A stretch of DNA of 64,000 bases, from contig CACDUI010000001.1 of assembly GCA_902555985.1 (NCBI GenBank), positions 67,291 through 131,290 on the forward strand. The letters run 5' to 3'. Of the stretch, positions 8,795 through 36,794 are shown piece by piece. The notes beneath the pieces were generated by a model that saw only the letters and a program-made list of their open reading frames with translations, ran no database searches and had not been told where the DNA came from. Positions within the stretch are counted from its first letter, which is position 1, and each line of letters starts with the position of its first letter. The position numbers and the translations under genes are program-made. The DNA comes from an uncultured Candidatus Actinomarina sp. (GTDB taxonomy: Bacteria > Actinomycetota > Acidimicrobiia > Actinomarinales > Actinomarinaceae).

Positions 8795-10876
8795 TTAGAG
8801 TTTTCTTGAAGAGTTGATGACAACAGAAATGCTTGAAAGGGCCATTGCTAATGCAGCTAAATTAGGCGTAATGATACCTATTACTGCAATAGGTATCATT
8901 AAAGTGTTGTAAATAAATGCGAGAAAAAGGTTTTGATATATTCTAAGTTTTGACTTTTTAGATAATTTAAATATTTTATTTATAGTTTCTAAACCACCCT
9001 TGTGAATTAAAATATCTCCAGAAACTTGTGCTATCTGACTACTTGAAGAAGTAGTCACACCAACATCCGCTTGCTTGATAGAAGGTGAATCATTAATCCC
9101 ATCACCGATAAAAATAACTTGATTGCTTTTTTGCTTATTTTTTATAAACTCTAATTTTTCTTCAGGGTTTTTACCAGAGTGGTATTCATCTATGTTATGA
9201 TTTTCAGCAAATTTTTTAACATTAATTTGTTTATCACCTGAGAGAATTATGATTTCTTTTTTTGACTTAAGTTCACCTAAAAAATCTGTTGAAACAGAGG
9301 ATTCTTCTTCCAAGTAAATAATATAGATTTTCTCATCGATTGTAATCTTCAAAGAGGATTCTTTTGACTCATTATTTTTTTGAATCTTAATATTTTGTCC
9401 TTCAACAACTCCTTCAATACCAACACCTGATTCTTCTTTTACGTCCTGGGCTGAAAGCAGAGTTATTTCTCTTACTTCAGCTTGATAAACTATACTTCTT
9501 GCTATTGGATGTTGTGAGAAATTTTCAACACTTGCAACTAATTGCAAGAACATTTCTTCAGGTATGCCTTCTACAGGCATTTCTATTTTTGATATTCTAA
9601 AAATTCCAGACGAAAGCGTTCCTGTTTTATCGAAGATCATTGTGTTAATATCGCCAAACTTTTGTAATATATCAAAATTCTTAAAAAGAAATCCACTTAT
9701 TTTACTTTTTGTTGCTGTTTTAAATAAAACAATTGGTGTCGCAAGACCCAATGCACATGGACATGCAATTACAAGAACAGCAATTGAATTTTTTAATGCT
9801 TCTATTAAAACAATGTCTTGAATGAAATATTTATATAAAAATGTACTAAAACTTATAAGTAAGACAGTTGGTACAAAAAATTGTGTTATTTTGTCTAGGG
9901 ACTTTTGAATTTCTGGTTTTGTGCCTTGAGCCTTCCTTATCAAATCTTCAATGATGTTGTATGTTGATTTTTGGTAAGATTCTTTAACTTCAACTTCAAG
10001 ACTTCCTTGCAAGTTGATGCTTCCACCAACTACTTTGTCACCCATGTTTTTTGGCAAGGGAATGGACTCGCCAGTTAATAAGCTTTCGTCAACTGTTGTT
10101 TCTCCCCTGATAACTTCCCCATCAACAGGAATAAGCTGACCTGCAAGAACCGTAAATACATCTTTGATTTGAACATCTTTTGTAGGTATTTCGATATTTT
10201 CACCACTTCTTTTAACAATTAGTGTTTTAGGCATTCTACTTTTAATCGATTCAGAAGTTTTTACAGACTCTTCAATAACCTTGTCTTCAACTGACTTTCC
10301 AATAAGTAAAAATGAAATAATAAATGCCCCAGTATCTAGAAACATTTTGTTTTCTCCTGCTGATGAAACTAGCTGAGCAGGCAAAATAGAAATCAGTAGA
10401 GAGCTCAAGCTCCCCAAGGAGATTAATGTGTCCATGTTAAAATCGAAACTTTTAATTTTCTTATAGGCAGAAATATGAAAATTTCTTCCTAAATAAAGGA
10501 CAACAAAAAAACCTACAACATAGGCTAAGCCGTCATAACCTGTTTCAAAAAGATACTTCAGCGACAAAGTCATTAATAAAGAAATTATCGGTAAAAGTAA
10601 CTTAAGTTTTATTTTTTTATCTTCAACCTCACCTGATGCTTCTTTAGCTTTATACCCTATTTTGTTCACAGATTTGATAATTTCTTCTAGGCTATTGTTC
10701 TCGTCTGAAATGTCAACAATTGCAGATTTTAGAGGAAAGCTTACAGATGCATCAAGAACATTTTCATTTTTGGAAAGAATGCGTTCAATACGTGCTGCAC
10801 AAGCAGCACAAGTCATACCATCAATATCAAGATTTATTGATTTAACTTGGCTGGACAACTGTGTAACCTTGTTCAT
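8795..10876 (-). CDS. copA: Copper-translocating P1B-type ATPase
   Basis: N-terminal HMA domain (GMTCAACAARIE), CPC transmembrane metal site (ACPCALG), DKTGTLS phosphorylation motif and GDGINDSP hinge. Confidence 0.9.
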   Translation of the reverse strand: MNKVTQLSSQVKSINLDIDGMTCAACAARIERILSKNENVLDASVSFPLKSAIVDISDENNSLEEIIKSVNKIGYKAKEASGEVEDKKIKLKLLLPIISLLMTLSLKYLFETGYDGLAYVVGFFVVLYLGRNFHISAYKKIKSFDFNMDTLISLGSLSSLLISILPAQLVSSAGENKMFLDTGAFIISFLLIGKSVEDKVIEESVKTSESIKSRMPKTLIVKRSGENIEIPTKDVQIKDVFTVLAGQLIPVDGEVIRGETTVDESLLTGESIPLPKNMGDKVVGGSINLQGSLEVEVKESYQKSTYNIIEDLIRKAQGTKPEIQKSLDKITQFFVPTVLLISFSTFLYKYFIQDIVLIEALKNSIAVLVIACPCALGLATPIVLFKTATKSKISGFLFKNFDILQKFGDINTMIFDKTGTLSSGIFRISKIEMPVEGIPEEMFLQLVASVENFSQHPIARSIVYQAEVREITLLSAQDVKEESGVGIEGVVEGQNIKIQKNNESKESSLKITIDEKIYIIYLEEESSVSTDFLGELKSKKEIIILSGDKQINVKKFAENHNIDEYHSGKNPEEKLEFIKNKQKSNQVIFIGDGINDSPSIKQADVGVTTSSSSQIAQVSGDILIHKGGLETINKIFKLSKKSKLRIYQNLFLAFIYNTLMIPIAVIGIITPNLAALAMALSSISVVINSSRKL

Positions 10877-11059: not shown

Positions 11060-11107
11060 TTTAATATTCTTGGGTTATAAAATAAGCCCCTTTTTAAAGG
11101 GGCTTAT
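11060..11107 (-). terminator. Intrinsic-terminator-like hairpin downstream of the small Cys/His gene (10-bp perfect stem)
   Basis: ATAAGCCCCT-TTTTAA-AGGGGCTTAT at 11082..11107. The stem halves are exact reverse complements. A U-rich run (UUUAUAA) follows on the minus-strand transcript. Between the hairpin and the gene the minus-strand 3'UTR is an unusual C-rich tract. Confidence 0.5.
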
Positions 11108-11153: not shown

Positions 11154-11348
11154 TTAAGCTGTTTCTTGGAGAATTCTGCCTCTTACTCGCGGGTATTTTA
11201 CCGGAGCATGGTTGAAGCAATGATCTCTTTTGTTATAAATACTAAGTTGAGTACTGCAAGATTCATCTTTACATACTCTGCCCTGGTCAAAACTTTTTGA
11301 TGGTCTAATACCACCTTTTATTTGACTAGCCTTTAATCCGTCTGTCAT
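11154..11348 (-). CDS. Small conserved Cys/His protein, paralog 1 (C-x4-C-x12-C-x2-H zinc-ribbon-like)
   Basis: 64 aa. About 55% identical to the 67-aa ORF at 35631..35834, with a shared block RVC..D.C....S.YNK...CF.HAPV.YPRVRG. Basic N-terminus. Confidence 0.55.
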   Translation of the reverse strand: MTDGLKASQIKGGIRPSKSFDQGRVCKDESCSTQLSIYNKRDHCFNHAPVKYPRVRGRILQETA

Positions 11349-11365
11349 TTTTATCCTTTATATAC

Positions 11366-11385
11366 TTTGTGAATATATTCACAAG
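11366..11385. promoter_or_regulatory. Perfect 18-bp palindrome TTGTGAATATATTCACAA (CRP/FNR-type TGTGA-N6-TCACA) about 20 bp upstream of the small Cys/His gene
   Basis: TGTGA (11368..11372) - ATATAT - TCACA (11379..11383), with flanking TT/AA extending the symmetry. Lies in the 65-bp gap between the peptidase stop and the small gene's start. Confidence 0.45.
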
Positions 11386-11413: not shown

Positions 11414-13312
11414 TTATTTTGACAAGTTTTTTTGTGTTAAAAATGCACTATCGTTCCATTTTCTACCTAAAAAGTTTTGAACCATGGTCTCAGCCGGAAT
11501 TGTTCCTCCAGGCATTAATATTTTATTTTTATAGTCAACACCAACTAACTTTGAAAGAACCCCCTCATTTTCAAACCTACTAAATAAATCATCACCTATT
11601 ATTTCAGCCCATATATACCCGTAATAAGCAGCATCATATCCACCAAGTAAATGACCGAAGGCTGCTAGATGGTTTATGTCTTTGGGATAAGATATAGTAG
11701 TAACTTCTTGAGCAGCATGCTCAATTTCTAAAAGACTATCTTTAAAGTTTTTTCCATGCAAATGTTGATCTGCAAGACCAAATGATACTTGTCTAAGCGT
11801 AAGTAAACTTACACCAATATTTTTAGACTTATTAAGCTTTTCACAAATTTCATCAGATAAGGTATCTCCAGATTCAATATGTTTTGAAATTCTTTTCATG
11901 CACTCTACTTTCCAAACCCAGTGTTCCATAATTTGACTTGGTGCTTCTACAAAGTCCCACTCACAGTTTGCGCCAACAAACCTTGTATATTTTGATTTAC
12001 CAATTCCATTGTGCAATACATGCCCAAATTCATGAAACAGAGTTTCAACTTCATCAAATGTCATTAACCCATCTCCCGTATTCGGGCTTGGGAAATTTGC
12101 AACCATTGAACATATTGGTAAGTCTTGTCTGTTGGACCCACCAGAGGAAATGTCGAAAACAGCTGCGTGGGTAAATTTTCCTTCTCTTGGGTAAAGGTCT
12201 AAATAAAAATAAGCAAGTTGTTGCCCGTCTTTTTCCCATAAAGACCATAGCTCAACATCTTTATGCCAGGCAGTTTTATTTGATTCAGGTTTTATTTCTA
12301 AATCAAAGACTTCCTCACAAACTTTAAACATTTCAGTTTTTACATCATGTATAAAGAAGAATTTTTTTAGTTCGCTATTTTCAATAGCACTTACTTTGCT
12401 TCTCTGTGCTGAAATAAAATATCGGATATCCCAAGGTGATATGTCATCAATGTCAATATTATCTATTACAAGCTCTTTTTTTTCTATTTCAGCTGCTTTT
12501 TGTAATTTAGAAATTAAACTTTCATACATTAAAGTGACATTTTCAGGTGATTTTGCCATTCTGTTCTGCAATCTATAATGAGCCCAAGTTTCATATCCAA
12601 ACAAGTTAGCCTTTTCATTTCTTAGCTGGACAGCCTCTTTCAAAATGGGACTATTTTCTTCTACAGCACGATTATTAAATGCTTTCCAAACAATCTCTCT
12701 CGTTGCTCTTATGCTGCAATTTTCCATGACTGCATTAATTTCTGGATATGCCATGGTTATAACAAATCTGTCTTCAATTTTTTTTAAGTTTTTAAGTTCA
12801 CTTGCACTTAACCCTTTTAATTCATTTTCAGAAAATAAGACTTCTGTCTTATCTTTTGCAATATTTTCTGAAAATGAAATGCTTAGATCAATAAGTTTTT
12901 TCTCAATTTCTGTCAGCCTAGCTTTTTTTTCATCTGAAAGACCATGTCCCGTATCTTTGAAATCAATTTCTAAATCTTTATGAAATGATTTTGATTCATC
13001 ATCCAAACTAAGGGTTTGAATTTCGCTAAATTTTTCGTATAGTTCTTTATCCTTAAATAATTCGAGCACAAAATTTTGTATTTTTGAATCAGCTTCATTT
13101 CCAAAATCTCTAATTTTTTCATCTGGGTGTACATCTCCCATAAAAGCAATACGTCCAGAAAGATCATGAATTGTACTTTCTAGTTCATCAAAATTACTTA
13201 ATACAATATTTTCAAATGATTTAATATTTTTGACTAATGTTTTACAGTCTTTAATTGTACTTTCTAAGTCTTTTTGTAATATTTCCAATGTTATGTCTGA
13301 ATAGTTAAACAC
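11414..13312 (-). CDS. M3-family zinc oligopeptidase (thimet oligopeptidase/Dcp/OpdA-like)
   Basis: 632 aa. HEFGHVLH zincin motif with a downstream Glu. Overall length and layout match M3 peptidases. Confidence 0.85.
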   Translation of the reverse strand: MFNYSDITLEILQKDLESTIKDCKTLVKNIKSFENIVLSNFDELESTIHDLSGRIAFMGDVHPDEKIRDFGNEADSKIQNFVLELFKDKELYEKFSEIQTLSLDDESKSFHKDLEIDFKDTGHGLSDEKKARLTEIEKKLIDLSISFSENIAKDKTEVLFSENELKGLSASELKNLKKIEDRFVITMAYPEINAVMENCSIRATREIVWKAFNNRAVEENSPILKEAVQLRNEKANLFGYETWAHYRLQNRMAKSPENVTLMYESLISKLQKAAEIEKKELVIDNIDIDDISPWDIRYFISAQRSKVSAIENSELKKFFFIHDVKTEMFKVCEEVFDLEIKPESNKTAWHKDVELWSLWEKDGQQLAYFYLDLYPREGKFTHAAVFDISSGGSNRQDLPICSMVANFPSPNTGDGLMTFDEVETLFHEFGHVLHNGIGKSKYTRFVGANCEWDFVEAPSQIMEHWVWKVECMKRISKHIESGDTLSDEICEKLNKSKNIGVSLLTLRQVSFGLADQHLHGKNFKDSLLEIEHAAQEVTTISYPKDINHLAAFGHLLGGYDAAYYGYIWAEIIGDDLFSRFENEGVLSKLVGVDYKNKILMPGGTIPAETMVQNFLGRKWNDSAFLTQKNLSK

Positions 13313-32066: not shown

Positions 32067-32456
32067 TTAGAAGGTTTTTCTTATTGTTTGATTATTTTTT
32101 TTAACGATTTCGTTCTTATAACTTTTATGAATTTCTTTTGCTTTATTTTTAGAATCAATTTTTTCACTTGAGATTTCATTTTCTAAAGAAATAATTTTTT
32201 CTTGTAGTTCTTCAATCTTATCTCTCATCTCATAAATTATTTTTATACCATCTAAGTTGATTCCTCGTTGAGACAGATTTTGAATTTGTATCAACTTATC
32301 TATATCTTCTTGAGAATAACGTCTTGTTCCCCCTCCAGTCCTGAACGGTTTTATTAACCCTTTTTCTTCATAAGTCCGAATTGTTTGTTGATGTATGCCC
32401 GAGAGTGTAGAGGCTACGGATATAAAGTATATTGCGTTTGACTCTTCACTACTCAT
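32067..32456 (-). CDS. hspR: Heat-shock repressor HspR (MerR family)
   Basis: MerR-type HTH (ISVASTLSGIHQQTIRTYEEKGLIKP) plus a C-terminal coiled coil. Last gene of the dnaK-grpE-dnaJ-hspR operon. Confidence 0.8.
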   Translation of the reverse strand: MSSEESNAIYFISVASTLSGIHQQTIRTYEEKGLIKPFRTGGGTRRYSQEDIDKLIQIQNLSQRGINLDGIKIIYEMRDKIEELQEKIISLENEISSEKIDSKNKAKEIHKSYKNEIVKKNNQTIRKTF

Positions 32457-33318
32457 CTAAATACTTTCTTGGAGAATCACCAGATTCAAACTGTTCTTTA
32501 AATTTTTCCAGGTGTTTTTTTGCAGACCTTGATAAGTCCACAGGGGGAGTAATAAATACTTTCACATATAAATCACCGGACCTTCTTCCTTGCGGAGCTA
32601 TACCCTCACCTCGAATTTTAAATGTTTTTCCGCTAGGTGTTCCAGATGGAATTTTTAATGTGACAGATTTTGTTAATGTGGGAATCTTAATGCTCGCACC
32701 TAGGGCAGCTTCAGTAAAGAGTAGGGGGATTTCTAAAATTAAGTCCATATTGCTTCTTTTAAAGAACTTATGAGGCTGAACGGAAACTTGTACCAATAGA
32801 TCTCCATCAGGTGCCCCAGCAGCTCCAGGACCTCCACGGCCCCTAAGCCTAATTACACTTCCATTATCTACACCTGCGGGAACTTTTATTTTTATCGATT
32901 CGTTTTCTATAGGTAGTACTACTTCAATACCAGAGGCAGCTTCAGCAAATGATATAGTGATATTAGTTTGGTATGTTTGACCCTTTCTTCTTCCGCCAAA
33001 ACCAAAAATATCACCAAGGTTTTCAAAGATATCTCCAAAGTCATCAACAGTAAAGCCCTGACTAGTGAAACCTCCAAAACCTGAACTTCCCATTGCTCTG
33101 ATTTGATCATATTCTTGACGTTTCCTATCATCGCCTAATACAGCGTGTGCTTCAGAAATTTCTTTAAACTTTTTTTCTGCTTCAATGTTTTCTGGGTTTA
33201 AATCCGGATGATTTTCCCTTGCTAATTTTTTGTAAGCTTTTTTTATTTCATCTGAGGTTGCATTTTGGGGTACGCCAAGTGTGGCATAGAAATTTTTATC
33301 TAGCCAATCTCTACTCAC
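32449..33318 (-). CDS. dnaJ: DnaJ-class co-chaperone (type II/CbpA-like: J domain + G/F region + C-terminal domains, no CxxCxGxG zinc finger)
   Basis: J domain with HPD (ENHPDLNP). G/F-rich linker. No cysteine repeats anywhere in the 289-aa protein. 8-nt overlaps with both grpE and hspR. Confidence 0.85.
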   Translation of the reverse strand: MSRDWLDKNFYATLGVPQNATSDEIKKAYKKLARENHPDLNPENIEAEKKFKEISEAHAVLGDDRKRQEYDQIRAMGSSGFGGFTSQGFTVDDFGDIFENLGDIFGFGGRRKGQTYQTNITISFAEAASGIEVVLPIENESIKIKVPAGVDNGSVIRLRGRGGPGAAGAPDGDLLVQVSVQPHKFFKRSNMDLILEIPLLFTEAALGASIKIPTLTKSVTLKIPSGTPSGKTFKIRGEGIAPQGRRSGDLYVKVFITPPVDLSRSAKKHLEKFKEQFESGDSPRKYLDE

Positions 33319-33799
33319 TTTTGACCTTAACCATGGCAGGTCGAATTAGGTTCCCTTGAAATTGATACCCTTTACGTAAAACTACATCAATTTTTTGTAT
33401 ATTACCTTCACCAGTATGTTCAACAGCCTCATGTAAAGCAGGGTCAAAATCCTCTCCAGCATCTCCAATTTCTGTGACTTGAAGACTTTCTAAAACTGAC
33501 GACAATAGGCTACTAAATGTTTCAACTTCTTTAGTAACTTTATCTTGAGACATAGCCATTTCAAAATTGTCTATGAGAGGAAATAAAGTATTTACAAAAT
33601 ACGCAATAGAAGCTGAGCCAATATTTTCTTTCTCTTTTTCAGATCTTTTTTTATAATTATCAAAGTCAGCAGCAAGTCTTAAGTAGTCATCTTTTATTTT
33701 TTCGTACTGAGAAAGAGGGACGCTTGATTCATCAGCTTCTGTATTTTCATTTTCAGAAGAATCATCAGGTTCTTCAGTATGCTCCTCTTCGTTACTCAT
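33311..33799 (-). CDS. grpE: Nucleotide exchange factor GrpE
   Basis: Acidic N-terminus, coiled coil, C-terminal beta domain ([19 protein letters not shown]). Position between dnaK and dnaJ. Confidence 0.9.
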
Positions 33800-35600
33800 C
33801 TTCTATGACTTCACCTTCTACCACGTCATCGGATTCACTTGAAGACGGATCAGGAGTATCATTTTGTGTTTCTGAATATAACTTTTCAGCAAATGATTGA
33901 CTAGCTTTAGAAAGCTCTTCAATAGCAACCTTGAGATCATTAACTTCGTTATCTTCATTTTCTAGGAGTTTCTTTAGATTTTCATTTGCATCAGTAATCG
34001 ATTTAATCTCATCATCAGTTGCTTTATCTTTGTTATCTTCCAACATTTTTTCTGTTGAAGTAACCATTCCTTCAGCCATATTTCTTGTCTCGACAAGATC
34101 TTTCTTTTTTGCATCTTCATTTGCATGTTGTTCTGCATCTTTTATCATTCTGTCTATCTCATCGTCTTCTAAAGCAGTTCCACCAGTAATTGTTATTGCT
34201 TGCTCCTTACCAGTGCCAAGGTCTTTAGCATTTACATTGACAATTCCATTTGCATCAATATCAAAAGTTACCTCTATCTGAGGTGTACCAGCCATTGCTG
34301 CAGGGATATCGGTTAATGTGAATCTGCCCAAAGATTTGTTACCAGAGGCCATATCTCTTTCACCTTGCAAGATGTGTATTTCAACCTGAGTTTGATTGTT
34401 TTCAGCAGTACTAAATACTTCTGACCTCTTAGTTGGAATAGTAGTGTTTCTTTCGATCATCTTTGTCATGATTCCACCTTTTGTTTCAACACCAAGTGTA
34501 AGTGGAGTGACATCGAGCAAAAGAACATCCTTTACATCACCTTTAAGAACGCCAGCTTGTATGGCAGCACCAGAAGCAACAACTTCGTCTGGGTTTACAC
34601 CTTTATGAGGATCTTTACCAGTTAAAGATTTAACAAGCTCTTGCACTGATGGCATTCTTGTAGAACCTCCAACTAATATTATGTGATTTATATCTGAAAA
34701 TTTCATTCCAGCATCAGACAAAGCATTTTCAACAGGTGCTTTTGTACGGTCTACTAAATCAGCTGTAATTTTTTCAAATTCAGACCTACTTAACTTTTCT
34801 AATAAATGTTGGGGACCAGCATCATTAGCAGTAATGAAAGGTAAATTAATTTCTGTTTCACTTGTAGAAGAAAGTTCAATTTTTGCTTTCTCTGCACCTT
34901 CTTGAATTCTTTGGATAGCCATTTTGTCTTTTGATAAATCAATGCCTGTTGATGATTTAAATTTATCAATTAACCAGTCCATAACTCTCTGATCCCAGTC
35001 ATCACCACCTAGTTTTGAATCACCAGAGGTTGACTTTACTTCAAAGACTCCTTCAGAAATTTCCAGAATAGAAACATCAAATGTACCACCACCCAGATCA
35101 AATACTAAAATTTTCTGATCTTGATTATTTTCTAAACCATACGCAAGTGATGCAGCTGTAGGTTCGTTAATGATTCTTAAAACGTTTAATCCAGCTATCT
35201 GACCTGCCTCTTTAGTCGCTTGTCTTTCTGCGTCATTAAAATATGCAGGCACAGTAATAACAGCTTCAGTAACGTCATCTCCTAAGTATGCTTCAGCATC
35301 CCTTTTTAATTTTTGAAGTATTCTTGCTGATATTTCTTGTGGAGTATAATCTTTCCCTTCAAAGCTTTCTTTCCAATCAGTTCCGATGTGTCTTTTAATT
35401 GATCTTATGGTGTTATCAGGATTTGTTATTGCTTGTCTTTTTGCAAGCTCTCCAACCAGTACTTCTTCAGACTTGAAAGCAACTATGGATGGAGTCGTCC
35501 TATTTCCTTCTGCATTTGCAATTACAGTTGGTTCGCCGCCTTCTAATACTGCGACAACACTATTTGTCGTTCCTAAATCAATTCCTACAGCTTTTCCCAT
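33792..35600 (-). CDS. dnaK: Chaperone DnaK (Hsp70)
   Basis: [16 protein letters not shown] and the VxDLGGGT motifs. 602 aa. Acidic EEVD-like C-terminus. Confidence 0.97.
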
Positions 35601-35630: not shown

Positions 35631-35834
35631 TTATGAGATAGGTTCTTGTTCTCTTGGTAAATGGCCTCTTACTCTTGGGTAGGAGACAGGTGCATGAAGA
35701 AAACAAAATTTCTTTTTGTTGTATACACTTATTACTGTTTCACAAGCATCAAATGCGCATACACGACCTGTAGTGTATTTTTTTGACCTTCTAACACCAG
35801 GCTTAACTTGAGATGCAGTTAATGTTCCGCTCAT
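35631..35834 (-). CDS. Small conserved Cys/His protein, paralog 2. First gene of the dnaK operon, ending 30 bp upstream of the dnaK start
   Basis: 67 aa, MSGTLTASQVKPGVRRSKKYTTGRVCAFDACETVISVYNKKKFCFLHAPVSYPRVRGHLPREQEPIS. Shares the C-x4-C-x12-C-x2-H block with the ORF at 11154..11348. Confidence 0.55.
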   Translation of the reverse strand: MSGTLTASQVKPGVRRSKKYTTGRVCAFDACETVISVYNKKKFCFLHAPVSYPRVRGHLPREQEPIS

Positions 35835-35869
35835 TTTTTACCTTTCTAATCTATACTTTATTATATATA

Positions 35870-35895
35870 AAATCTATGTAAATTTACTTAGATTT
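35870..35895. promoter_or_regulatory. 26-bp near-perfect palindrome AAATCTATGTAAATTTACTTAGATTT (24/26 symmetric), about 35 bp upstream of the dnaK-operon first gene
   Basis: The two halves AAATCTA.GTAAA / TTTAC.TAGATTT are reverse complements except at one symmetric position pair. Lies in the 165-bp AT-rich divergent region between the dnaK operon and proC. Confidence 0.45.
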
Positions 35896-35999
35896 GTATT
35901 AAATATAACATAATATCGATATTAAACAAAAAAAAATAAAAAAAATTTTAAAAAGTAGCTTTTTTTAACCTCTCATCATTTAACTGATATTATTGAAGA

Positions 36000-36794
36000 A
36001 TGGAAAAATTAGATATTCACATAGTTGGTTTAGGTAATTTAGGATCTGCATTCTTAAAAGGTTTAAATATTGTTGATGGTATCAACTTATTTTTATACGA
36101 GGATTTAGATGTTGTTAGACAATCTATAAATGATGAATTTTCTATTACTCCAGATGACTCAATAATTTCTATTCAAAATGGGGTACTTATTCTTTGTATT
36201 AAGCCTCAAAATATAAATAATTTTTTTACAAATAACAAAGATAAAATAGACCCGGATGTTTTAATTTGCTCCCCTGTTGCTGGGTTAGAAATTAAAACAA
36301 TAGAAAGTTTTATCGATAATAAAATTCTTCGAATAATGCCTAATTTACTCATCGGTGATAATAAAGGATTTATTCCATATGTATCAAATTATGATGGAGA
36401 TTATTTCACTTTTAAGAAGAATGTTTTGGCGAAACTTGGTGCTATAAAAGAATTTGACGAGGCAATGTTTCCAATAATTACAGCTTTGTCAGGAAGTGGT
36501 CCTGCTTGGTATTACGAGCTATCAAGTCAACTTGTTAACTCTGGTCAAGAATTGGGACTTAGCTTAGATGATTCCGAAATGATAATTAAAGAACTTGTAA
36601 AAGCCCTTCCAACACTTGTGGCAGAAGACAGCTCATTTAAAGATCTAGTAGAGCAAGTAAAGTCACCTAATGGCACAACTGAGGCTGGACTCAATTCGCT
36701 TAATAATGATTCATTTGATAGAATAATTCTCGATGCTATTCAAAAAGCAACGCACAGATCTACTGAAATATCAAGAGAACTAAGTAATGAATAA
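36000..36794 (+). CDS. proC: Pyrroline-5-carboxylate reductase
   Basis: N-terminal Rossmann (IHIVGLGNLGSAF). C-terminal ProC signature region VKSPNGTTEAGL. Confidence 0.75.
   Translation: MEKLDIHIVGLGNLGSAFLKGLNIVDGINLFLYEDLDVVRQSINDEFSITPDDSIISIQNGVLILCIKPQNINNFFTNNKDKIDPDVLICSPVAGLEIKTIESFIDNKILRIMPNLLIGDNKGFIPYVSNYDGDYFTFKKNVLAKLGAIKEFDEAMFPIITALSGSGPAWYYELSSQLVNSGQELGLSLDDSEMIIKELVKALPTLVAEDSSFKDLVEQVKSPNGTTEAGLNSLNNDSFDRIILDAIQKATHRSTEISRELSNE

What the first reader, a model, noticed from the sequence alone, without database searches (positions are those of the whole stretch)
35870..35895. 26-bp near-perfect palindrome, not a canonical HAIR element, in front of the dnaK operon
AAATCTATGTAAATTTACTTAGATTT is symmetric at 24 of 26 positions around a GTAAATTTAC core. 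It lies about 35 bp upstream of the first gene (small Cys/His paralog 2) of the operon that ends in hspR. I could not find the canonical HspR operator, HAIR (CTTGAGT-N7-ACTCAAG), anywhere in the 165-bp promoter region. So this element is the best operator candidate. It may be a divergent HspR site in a low-GC lineage, or the site of another regulator, possibly the small protein itself.
Basis: seen in the sequence. Interest (0 to 1): 0.6.

Follow-up and report, generated by a model that had tools for sequence, protein, structure and literature searches.

The report
Clade-specific heat-shock operator before dnaK
The palindrome is a real regulatory site, kept almost letter for letter in about 50 species of the tiny marine bacterium Candidatus Actinomarina, and is most likely where the heat-shock repressor HspR switches off its own chaperone operon, in a lineage-specific variant of the textbook HspR site.

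Summary
AAATCTATGTAAATTTACTTAGATTT lies at 35870-35895, is symmetric at 24 of 26 positions, and ends 35 nt before the small gene that opens the minus-strand operon small ORF-dnaK-grpE-dnaJ-hspR. No HAIR or CIRCE element is present.

The window comes from Ca. Actinomarina (about 33% GC). In 51 of 53 distinct orthologous promoters the arms ATCTAAGT/ACTTAGAT are nearly invariant, while the central spacer varies. One lineage has a 7-nt spacer. The site sits at a fixed distance from a conserved TTGCAT-N16-TATATT promoter, at about +1 to +26. Arm changes are never compensated, so this is a DNA site rather than an RNA hairpin.

Sister Acidimicrobiia have the same HspR recognition helix. At dnaK they carry AAT(A/C)TGA(C/T)A-N7-(A/G)CTCA(A/G)GTT. 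The Actinomarina arms look like an AT-shifted, symmetrised descendant of that element. Those relatives lack the small gene, which argues against the small protein as the binder.

Best reading: a clade-specific HAIR variant bound by HspR (confidence about 0.75). Binding itself is untested, and no second target such as clpB or lon was found.

Unexpectedly, one marine phage lineage carries the same operator with the same auxiliary TAGAT 23 nt downstream.

The parts
35870..35895 (.). The 26-bp palindrome. Read in operon sense (minus strand) it is AAATCTAAGT-AAATTT-ACATAGATTT. The conserved core ATCTAAGTA-N4-TACTTAGAT spans 35872-35893. Proposed HspR operator.
   Evidence: Searches show the sequence and its symmetry. 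Searches show the arms invariant in 48-51 of 51 orthologous promoters while the central spacer varies. In a PWM scan of the 64-kb window the site scores 35 bits and nothing else exceeds 8 bits.
35902..35910 (-). Predicted extended -10 box, TG-T-TATATT (TATATT at 35907..35902). It ends 6 nt before the AAATCT of the palindrome.
   Evidence: In the anchored profile of 51 promoters, TATATT is conserved and ends 6 nt (occasionally 7) upstream of the palindrome. This is a consensus-based inference. No transcription start site data are available.
35924..35929 (-). Predicted -35 box. It reads TTGTTT here and TTGCAT in most relatives, 16 nt upstream of the -10 box.
   Evidence: A TTG-type hexamer (commonest TTGCAT) ends exactly 28 nt before the palindrome in 41 of 51 promoters. 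The simple promoter scan of the window did not list it, because it scores 8 of 12 against a threshold of 9.
35849..35853 (-). Auxiliary conserved element TAGAT, resembling the outer part of the right arm. Its AGAT lies exactly 23 nt downstream of the right-arm AGAT, just before the ribosome-binding site.
   Evidence: AGAT occurs at offset +23 in 49 of 51 host promoters and in all 7 phage variants examined, even though the sequence in between differs.
35841..35847 (-). Ribosome-binding site AGAAAGG of the small ORF.
   Evidence: One search gives the sequence. The profile shows a conserved purine-rich block (..agaA.Gg).
35631..35834 (-). First gene of the operon. It encodes a 67-aa Cys/His protein (motif C-x4-C-x12-C-x2-H, then PRVRG) of unknown function. 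This is paralog 2.
   Evidence: define the ORF and motif. No hit in Pfam, NCBIfam or PHROGs. The family has 841 representatives. The AlphaFold2 model has pLDDT 86 but no fold match.
33792..35600 (-). dnaK
   Evidence: ORF. Orthologs hit HSP70.
33311..33799 (-). grpE
   Evidence: ORF. Orthologs hit GrpE.
32449..33318 (-). dnaJ, 289 aa, without the CXXCXGXG zinc-finger domain.
   Evidence: One search finds the DnaJ and DnaJ_C domains only. The 359-aa orthologs also carry PF00684.
32067..32456 (-). hspR, a MerR-family heat-shock repressor and the proposed binder of the palindrome.
   Evidence: NF047375 HspR equivalog scores 108.3 bits against a cut-off of 105. MerR_1 matches at 8e-17. The recognition helix IHQQTIRTYEEKGL compares with [14 protein letters not shown] in sister lineages.

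Best explanation
The palindrome is the operator through which HspR, encoded by the last gene of the operon, represses transcription of small ORF-dnaK-grpE-dnaJ-hspR.

Proposed mechanism. An HspR dimer binds the two arms ATCTAAGT/ACTTAGAT. HspR is a MerR-type winged-helix protein, and in other bacteria it uses DnaK as co-repressor. The arms lie immediately downstream of a conserved TTGCAT-N16-TATATT promoter, over the predicted start site (about +1 to +26), so bound HspR would block initiation or promoter escape. When unfolded proteins titrate DnaK, HspR leaves the DNA and the operon is induced. A conserved TAGAT 23 nt further downstream may be a low-affinity auxiliary half-site.

The site is a lineage-specific variant of the HAIR element. 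Compared with the imperfect element of sister Acidimicrobiia, it is AT-shifted, made symmetric, and usually has a 6-nt rather than a 7-nt spacer.

Shown: the sequence, its clade-wide conservation, its fixed position, the absence of RNA-type covariation, and its similarity to the sister-lineage element. Inferred: the promoter and start site, HspR as the binder, the DnaK feedback, and the role of TAGAT.
For: 1. Conservation with the signature of a protein-binding site. In 51 of 53 distinct promoters from different Actinomarina species and metagenomes, the 16 arm positions are identical in 48-51 sequences. The four central spacer positions vary freely.

2. Fixed architecture. The -35 box ends 28 nt before the palindrome, the -10 box ends 6 nt before it, and the palindrome ends about 35 nt before the ATG. 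The distance to proC varies, with an intergenic region of 105-165 bp. The site therefore belongs to the dnaK promoter.

3. The operon encodes a bona fide HspR. Its recognition helix and wing are almost identical to those of Acidimicrobiia HspRs.

4. Homology of the site itself. Six sister-lineage dnaK promoters carry AAT(A/C)TGA(C/T)A-N7-(A/G)CTCA(A/G)GTT. The right arm ACTCAGGTT matches Actinomarina ACTTAGATT at 7 of 9 positions, and both differences are GC-to-AT transitions. The left part of L249, AATCTGATA, matches AATCTAAGT at 6 of 9. The N7 spacing is retained in the L001-L006 Actinomarina lineage.

5. These relatives have no small gene between promoter and dnaK, so the operator predates the small gene.

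6. Arm substitutions are uncompensated and covariation does not exceed the shuffles (0.020 against 0.024; 324 of 500 shuffles reach the observed value).

7. Published work shows that HspR autoregulates dnaK or hspR operons through HAIR or HAIR-like repeats, with flanking low-affinity sites, in Streptomyces, H. pylori and C. jejuni (PMC6102357, PMC7464140).

8. Actinomarinales have only 2 sigma factors and median intergenic spacers of 2-3 bp (PMC7771536). A conserved 165-bp regulatory region is therefore exceptional in these genomes.
Against: No binding experiment exists.

Against the canonical HAIR (CTTGAGT-N7-ACTCAAG), each arm matches at only 4 of 7 positions, and the spacer is 6 nt rather than 7 in 51 of 53 promoters. 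By itself that similarity is within chance.

The HspR recognition helix is essentially unchanged from relatives that use an ACTCA(A/G)G arm. The changed bases must therefore be tolerated or read indirectly.

The operator has moved relative to the promoter. It overlaps -35 and the spacer in sister lineages, but lies at about +1 to +26 here.

No second site was found upstream of any other chaperone gene, either in the 64-kb window or in a metagenome-wide search for perfect sites outside the dnaK context.

The HAIR-like hit in L065 alone (3 mismatches) is within chance, with 0.58 expected per locus.
Confidence: 0.75

Rival explanations
1. The palindrome is the operator of a different DNA-binding protein. 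One candidate is the 67-aa Cys/His protein encoded by the first gene of the operon, acting in autoregulation. Another is an unidentified Actinomarina regulator.
For: The motif differs from the canonical HAIR in both arms and spacing. The small protein is basic, binds zinc by prediction, has no known function, and is encoded directly downstream of the site. One phage lineage carries both a homolog of the small protein and an exact copy of the motif.
Against: A homologous element sits at dnaK in Acidimicrobiia that lack the small gene. Paralog 1 has a different invariant palindrome, which is Rex-like. Of 80 phage contigs that encode the small protein, only 5 have the perfect motif, one has 1 mismatch and one has 2. 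The rest are at background level. The structure model shows almost no secondary structure and matches no DNA-binding fold. No other regulator gene lies in or next to the operon.
Confidence: 0.12
2. The element acts as RNA. It would form a 10-bp stem-loop at the very 5' end of the operon mRNA, serving as an mRNA stabiliser or a temperature-sensitive structure, and its DNA palindrome would be incidental.
For: If the conserved TTGCAT-N16-TATATT promoter is the one used, the palindrome is transcribed as the first roughly 26 nt of the mRNA. The predicted minimum-energy fold contains the hairpin. The downstream TAGAT is complementary to the left arm.
Against: There is no compensatory change in 38 distinct sequences. 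The changes seen are uncompensated: A-A in the window, C-A in L029 and L041, and CC in L027. Covariation does not exceed the shuffles. The folding energy is unremarkable, with z = -0.67. The hairpin does not sequester the ribosome-binding site, which lies about 30 nt away. Both arms are conserved in sequence far more strictly than a helix would require. The same element with its +23 TAGAT occurs in phages with no ribosome-binding site or gene directly behind it.
Confidence: 0.08
3. The palindrome is a chance feature of an AT-rich intergenic region and has no function.
For: Within the window alone, 15% of shuffled sequences contain a palindrome with at least 12 of 13 matched pairs.
Against: The arms are nearly invariant in about 50 species whose neighbouring intergenic bases have diverged.
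Confidence: 0.01

Closest known systems
HAIR (HspR-associated inverted repeat, CTTGAGT-N7-ACTCAAG) of Streptomyces and Mycobacterium dnaK-hspR operons
   Same: Both are inverted repeats in the promoter of a dnaK-grpE-dnaJ-hspR operon whose last gene encodes HspR. Both share the inner core AGT...ACT and have a similar overall length of 21-22 bp. Both overlap the core promoter or start site, consistent with repression.
   Different: The arms match at only 4 of 7 positions (TCTAAGT against CTTGAGT). The spacer is 6 nt in 51 of 53 promoters, and 7 nt in one lineage. The palindrome is perfect and extended (9-bp arms, ATCTAAGTA/TACTTAGAT). Only a single copy is present, plus a half-site-like TAGAT at +23. 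No second regulon member was detected.
   Same: The operon is the same and the HspR recognition helix is the same. The right arm plus flank match at 7 of 9 positions, with both differences being GC-to-AT transitions. The left flank AATCT is shared with L249. The N7 spacing is the same as in the L001-L006 Actinomarina lineage.
   Different: In the sister lineages the left arm is degenerate and doubles as the -35 box, so the element lies between -35 and -10. In Actinomarina the element is a perfect palindrome placed after a separate upstream promoter, and a small gene has been inserted between it and dnaK.
HspR operators of H. pylori and C. jejuni (a central HAIR-like repeat with flanking low-affinity sites; PMC6102357, PMC7464140)
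   Same: All are from low-GC genomes and have a degenerate relationship to the Streptomyces consensus. In each, a central high-affinity repeat is accompanied by auxiliary flanking determinants. The TAGAT at +23 here could play that role.
   Different: Those sites keep the 21-bp geometry and a conserved CTT at the outer left arm, and they are imperfect repeats. The Actinomarina site is perfect and has a different outer arm (ATCT).
TnrA/GlnR operators (TGTNA-N7-TNACA), whose regulators are the closest relatives of this HspR with solved DNA-bound structures
   Same: These are minimal MerR-type winged-helix dimers that bind a short palindrome of about 17-22 bp. They are the best sequence matches to this HspR in the PDB (4r4e at 4e-12).
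   Different: The half-site sequence differs and the physiological role is nitrogen control. The protein here passes the HspR model, not the TnrA model.

Membership tests
HAIR operator (HspR-associated inverted repeat) | Inverted repeat with arms CTTGAGT / ACTCAAG | tested here: not met
   No match with up to 3 mismatches in the promoter. The conserved arms TCTAAGT/ACTTAGA share 4 of 7 positions per arm with the consensus. They share 5 of 7 with the ACTCAGG arm of sister Acidimicrobiia.
HAIR operator (HspR-associated inverted repeat) | 7-bp spacer between the 7-bp arms (21 bp in all) | tested here: not met
   The spacer is 6 nt in the window and in 51 of 53 distinct orthologous promoters. It is 7 nt only in the L001-L006 lineage.
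HAIR operator (HspR-associated inverted repeat) | Lies in the promoter of an operon that encodes HspR (autoregulation of dnaK-hspR) | tested here: met
   The site lies 35 nt upstream of small ORF-dnaK-grpE-dnaJ-hspR. It is at a fixed distance from the conserved -35 and -10 boxes.
HAIR operator (HspR-associated inverted repeat) | The same motif occurs upstream of other HspR-regulon genes (clpB, lon, small heat-shock genes) | tested here: inconclusive
   The window has no second site above 8 bits and contains no other chaperone gene. A metagenome-wide search for perfect sites outside the dnaK context gave only chance-like hits, 2 dnaK promoters and the phage. Imperfect sites and whole Actinomarina genomes could not be scanned.
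HAIR operator (HspR-associated inverted repeat) | Bound by HspR, with DnaK as co-repressor | not testable with these tools
   This needs EMSA or footprinting with purified protein.
HspR protein (MerR family, NCBIfam NF047375) | Passes the curated equivalog model and has a MerR-type HTH | tested here: met
   The score is 108.3 bits against a cut-off of 105. PF13411 matches at 8e-17. The helix H-x-Q-T-[IL]-R-x-Y-E and the wing RTxGGTRRYS are shared with Acidimicrobiia HspRs.
CIRCE / HrcA operator | TTAGCACTC-N9-GAGTGCTAA | tested here: not met
   No match with up to 3 mismatches anywhere in the window.
Structured 5'-UTR RNA element (thermometer or stabiliser hairpin) | Helix maintained by compensatory substitutions; fold more stable than shuffled sequence | tested here: not met
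   Five of 11 pairs never vary, and only 1 cell shows a change on both sides. The covariation score is 0.020 against a shuffled mean of 0.024. The fold z-score is -0.67.

The most novel reading that the evidence does not exclude
The Actinomarina clade has rebuilt its HspR operator into a perfect bipartite element: ATCTAAGTA-N4-TACTTAGAT plus a TAGAT 23 nt downstream. An abundant marine phage lineage has then co-opted exactly this element, so that a phage promoter region is controlled by the host heat-shock repressor. On this reading, phage gene expression would be gated by the proteotoxic-stress state of the host. The same phages also carry a homolog of the heat-shock-operon small zinc protein.
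Probability: 0.15. Interest if true: 0.65.

Novelty: new variant of a known kind. Interest (0 to 1): 0.4.

Why it matters
Ca. Actinomarina is among the most abundant and most streamlined marine Actinobacteria. It has about 1.1 Mb of genome, 2 sigma factors, no two-component systems and median intergenic spacers of 2-3 bp (PMC7771536). One of its few obvious regulatory regions therefore gives a rare view of how an uncultured oligotroph controls a stress response.

The finding defines the probable HspR recognition sequence for the whole clade. That sequence can be used to predict the regulon in complete genomes and to interpret metatranscriptomes.

It also shows how an operator can drift with genome GC content while the regulator's recognition helix stays the same.

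Finally, it provides a marker that links an uncultured phage lineage to this host or to its regulator.

It does not reveal a new kind of mechanism.

Tried and rejected
1. Canonical HAIR and CIRCE searches in the window found nothing relevant.

2. A second site in the window was sought with a PWM. Nothing scored above 8 bits. The other large ORFs are not chaperones.

3. A regulon search in metagenomes used BNATCTAAGTRNNNNYACTTAGATNV, designed to exclude the dnaK context. It gave 35 hits, nearly all from unrelated organisms with no chaperone context. The one nearby ClpB, in the Bacteroidetes-like L127, is 1.4 kb away. The flank exclusion and the exact-match requirement limit sensitivity.

4. The small protein as a known DNA binder. 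There was no hit in Pfam, NCBIfam or PHROGs. The AlphaFold2 model had no PDB fold match.

5. A general link between the small protein and the motif in phages was rejected. Most phage contigs encoding the protein lack the motif.

6. The RNA hairpin model found no covariation support.

7. The 12-bp perfect palindrome AATATCGATATT in the promoter spacer is not conserved, even in the nearest genome, L009.

8. A promoter with its -35 box inside the palindrome (TTTACA-N16-TAAAGT) is possible in the window, but its hexamers are not conserved across species. The TTGCAT/TATATT pair is conserved.

9. An HspR homolog search intended to find intermediate lineages returned only close relatives. In the GTDB species set, HspR identity drops directly from 74% to 50%, so no intermediate operator forms are available.

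10. The HAIR-like hit in L065 alone is within chance. It gained weight only when five further Acidimicrobiia promoters showed the same element.

Full report
**Observation.** The sequence aaatctatgtaaatttacttagattt occupies window 35870-35895. It is a palindrome with one mismatched pair, giving 24 of 26 symmetric positions. The genes beside it lie on the minus strand:
- a 67-aa Cys/His ORF (35834..35631)
- dnaK (35600..33792)
- grpE (33799..33311)
- dnaJ (33318..32449)
- a MerR-family gene (32456..32067)

The last gene passes NCBI's curated HspR model with 108.3 bits against a cut-off of 105. The palindrome ends 35 nt before the first ATG. The intergenic region to the divergent proC gene (36000..36794) is 165 bp. 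The window contains no HAIR with up to 3 mismatches in this region (one hit elsewhere, against 3.9 expected) and no CIRCE. From the window alone the palindrome is only mildly unusual: two palindromes with at least 12 of 13 matched pairs were found against 0.165 expected.

**Origin and comparative material.** The window has about 33% GC. Its HspR is 100% identical to that of the single-cell genome Ca. Actinomarina AG-447-I21. A scan of one genome per GTDB species returned 56 Actinomarina loci (HspR 74-100% identical), followed by a jump to 50% identity in an Acidimicrobiaceae MAG. Further orthologous loci came from metagenomes. In all of them the order proC <-> small ORF-dnaK-grpE-dnaJ-hspR is kept.

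**Conservation.** Of 53 distinct upstream regions, 51 contain AAATCTAAGT-N6-ACTTAGATT. The counts across the 51 sequences are:
- The 16 arm positions (ATCTAAGT / ACTTAGAT) are identical in 48-51.
- The first and last spacer bases are A (45 of 51) and T (49 of 51), so the arms are effectively 9 bp: ATCTAAGTA-N4-TACTTAGAT.
- The four central bases vary freely.

The window's own mismatch (ACATAGAT) is a private change shared only with L009. The L001-L006 lineage has ATCTTAGT-GTGTATT-ACTTAGAT, a 7-nt spacer. Conserved arms with a free spacer are the signature of a site read by a dimeric protein. In a PWM scan the window site scores 35 bits and nothing else in the 64 kb exceeds 8 bits.

**Position.** When the 51 promoters are anchored on the palindrome, four further conserved blocks appear:
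- TTGCAT (TTGTTT in the window, 35929..35924), ending exactly 28 nt upstream in 41 of 51.
- TATATT (35907..35902, preceded by TG-n in the window), ending 6 nt upstream.
- An AGAT exactly 23 nt after the right-arm AGAT in 49 of 51 (TAGAT, 35853..35849).
- The ribosome-binding site.

TTGCAT-N16-TATATT is a well-spaced sigma-70-type promoter. Its start site should fall on the conserved A's that open AAATCT. That would explain why the left flank is more conserved than the right, and it places the operator at about +1 to +26. This is inference from consensus; no start-site data exist. The simple scan of the window instead lists TTTACA-N16-TAAAGT, which overlaps the palindrome, but those hexamers are not conserved. 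Either way the palindrome overlaps the core promoter. The distance to proC varies between lineages (105 to 165 bp) while the distance to the operon does not. The 12-bp palindrome AATATCGATATT (35923..35912) in the spacer is not conserved.

**DNA or RNA?** If the element is transcribed it could form a 5' hairpin, but the fold is no better than that of shuffled sequence (z = -0.67). On 38 distinct sequences, 5 of 11 pairs never vary, and the changes that occur are uncompensated: A-A in the window, C-A in L029 and L041, and two mismatches in L027. The covariation score of 0.020 does not exceed the shuffled mean of 0.024, and 324 of 500 shuffles reach the observed value. Invariant pairs are neutral evidence. 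Strict conservation of both arm sequences, without any helix-preserving change, fits protein readout of DNA better than an RNA helix.

**Which protein?** Three lines of evidence bear on this.
- *The regulator.* The operon's own HspR is the obvious candidate, because HspR autoregulates dnaK or hspR operons through HAIR or HAIR-like repeats in every organism studied (PMC6102357, PMC7464140). Its DNA-binding region (ISVASTLSGIHQQTIRTYEEKGL...RTGGGTRRYS) is nearly the same as in Acidimicrobiia HspRs ([23 protein letters not shown]...RTPGGTRRYS). Its closest solved relatives are the minimal MerR proteins GlnR and TnrA.
- *Weak similarity to the textbook HAIR.* Each arm matches at 4 of 7 positions (xxTxAGT...ACTxAxx), and the spacer is one base shorter. 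Taken alone, that is within chance.
- *Sister lineages.* I therefore looked at six dnaK promoters from Acidimicrobiia (L065, L244, L246-L249; HspR about 50% identical to the window's). They share AAT(A/C)TGA(C/T)A-N7-(A/G)CTCA(A/G)GTT followed by a -10 box. The right arm with its flank, ACTCAGGTT, matches Actinomarina ACTTAGATT at 7 of 9 positions, and both differences are GC-to-AT transitions, as expected in a lineage that fell to 33% GC. The left part of L249, AATCTGATA, matches AATCTAAGT at 6 of 9 positions. The N7 spacing equals that of the L001-L006 Actinomarina lineage.

The Actinomarina palindrome therefore looks like a descendant of the class-wide HAIR-like element that has shifted toward AT, become symmetric, and usually lost 1 bp. 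None of the sister promoters has the small gene, so the operator is older than that gene. In those relatives the element overlaps -35 and the spacer, whereas in Actinomarina it follows a separate upstream promoter. That is a real difference in architecture.

**The small protein.** It belongs to a family of about 60-80-aa proteins with the motif C-x4-C-x-T-x-LS-x-YN-x4-C-x2-H-x-P-x3-PRxRG. The family has 841 cluster representatives at E<=1e-3. No Pfam, NCBIfam or PHROG annotation exists. The confident AlphaFold2 model (pLDDT 86) has almost no secondary structure and no PDB match. The window holds a second paralog (11348..11154). It has its own invariant palindrome, TTGTGAA-TATA-TTCACAA (11367-11384). 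From my own knowledge this matches the Rex operator consensus TTGTGAAnnnnTTCACAA. The two paralogs thus sit behind two different operators, which argues against autoregulation through the dnaK motif.

**Regulon.** I could not scan whole Actinomarina genomes. A metagenome-wide search for perfect sites, with flanks chosen to exclude the dnaK context, returned 35 loci. Two are dnaK promoters that escaped the filter (L133, L134), two are phage (L121, L126), and the rest come from unrelated organisms without chaperone context. About 1 in 51 dnaK sites passes that filter. A second site as perfectly conserved as the dnaK one should therefore have produced many hits. There is probably none, although imperfect sites remain possible.

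**Phage.** A scan of viral contigs for ATCTAAGT-N6-ACTTAGAT gave 31 hits, roughly the chance level. Five of them belong to one marine phage lineage (with a terminase at L104:1961-3859) that also encodes a 68-aa homolog of the small protein. In seven variants of this phage the site ATCTAAGTGTAATTACTTAGAT (one mismatch in L160) lies in a long non-coding region. It is followed by TAGAT exactly 23 nt after the right-arm AGAT, as in the hosts, although the 18 nt in between differ among variants. No hspR or dnaK is present in the phage loci. Most of the 80 phage contigs that encode the small protein lack the motif. The simplest reading is that a sub-lineage of Actinomarina phages has acquired and kept the host's bipartite operator. 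Whether it places a phage promoter under HspR control is speculation.

**Verdict.** The palindrome is a genuine, clade-wide cis-regulatory element of the dnaK-hspR operon. It fails the strict definition of HAIR on both arms and spacer, but it is best explained as its lineage-specific variant, bound by HspR (confidence about 0.75). The rivals are another regulator, including the small protein (0.12), an RNA role (0.08) and chance (0.01). It is a new variant of a known kind and is of moderate interest. The phage copy and the +23 auxiliary element are the least expected parts.

Noticed in passing
window 11154-11348 (-) and 11367-11384: A second paralog of the small Cys/His protein (64 aa) lies here. 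Its protein sequence is 100% identical in many Actinomarina species (listed in 16,432 index blocks). It is preceded by an invariant perfect 18-bp palindrome, TTGTGAATATATTCACAA, which matches the Rex operator consensus TTGTGAAnnnnTTCACAA (my own knowledge). It is followed by a GC hairpin terminator at 11082-11107. One paralog therefore seems wired to redox control and the other to heat shock.
   Followed up: partly
L104:5214-5235 (also L108, L111, L115, L116, L121, L126, L160): A marine phage lineage carries an exact copy of the Actinomarina operator arms, ATCTAAGTGTAATTACTTAGAT, plus TAGAT at the same +23 offset as in the host promoters. The copy sits in a non-coding region of about 540 bp. 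The same phages encode a 68-aa homolog of the small Cys/His protein (L104:4361-4567). No hspR or dnaK is present in the phage loci.
   Followed up: partly
window 35849-35853 (-): A conserved TAGAT/AAGAT lies exactly 23 nt downstream of the right-arm AGAT in 49 of 51 host promoters and in all 7 phage variants examined. It resembles the outer half of an operator arm. Its function is unknown; it may be an auxiliary low-affinity half-site.
   Followed up: partly
window 32449-33318 (-): The DnaJ of this genome (289 aa) lacks the CXXCXGXG zinc-finger domain. Other Actinomarina species have a 359-aa DnaJ that includes it. Both forms occur across the genus, as shown by loci with the small-gene start at about 2620 or about 2395.
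   Followed up: no
L244:1843-1863, L246:1728-1748, L247:1661-1681, L248:1869-1889, L249:1795-1815, L065:2062-2082: High-GC Acidimicrobiia share an asymmetric HAIR-like element at dnaK, (T/A)TGA(C/T)A-N7-(A/G)CTCA(A/G)GTT. Its left arm coincides with the -35 box and it is followed by the -10 box. In L247 and L248, lon is transcribed divergently from the same intergenic region.
   Followed up: partly
window 35912-35923: A perfect 12-bp palindrome, AATATCGATATT, lies between the predicted -35 and -10 boxes. It is not conserved, even in the nearest genome (L009 has AATATCTGTATT), so it is probably chance.
   Followed up: yes
L147:200-300; L138:2095-2160; L140:1375-1440: Unrelated metagenome contigs (33-40% GC) carry tandem sites of the form ATCT[AG]AGT-N6-ACT[TC]A.. 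next to non-chaperone genes (a lipoprotein and a FabK-like enzyme). This is probably the operator of some other regulator in another phylum.
   Followed up: no
window 8795-10876 and 11414-13312 (-): Paralog 1 of the small protein sits between an M3 peptidase gene and a copper-type P-type ATPase with HMA domains. This arrangement is conserved in all 10 loci examined.
   Followed up: no
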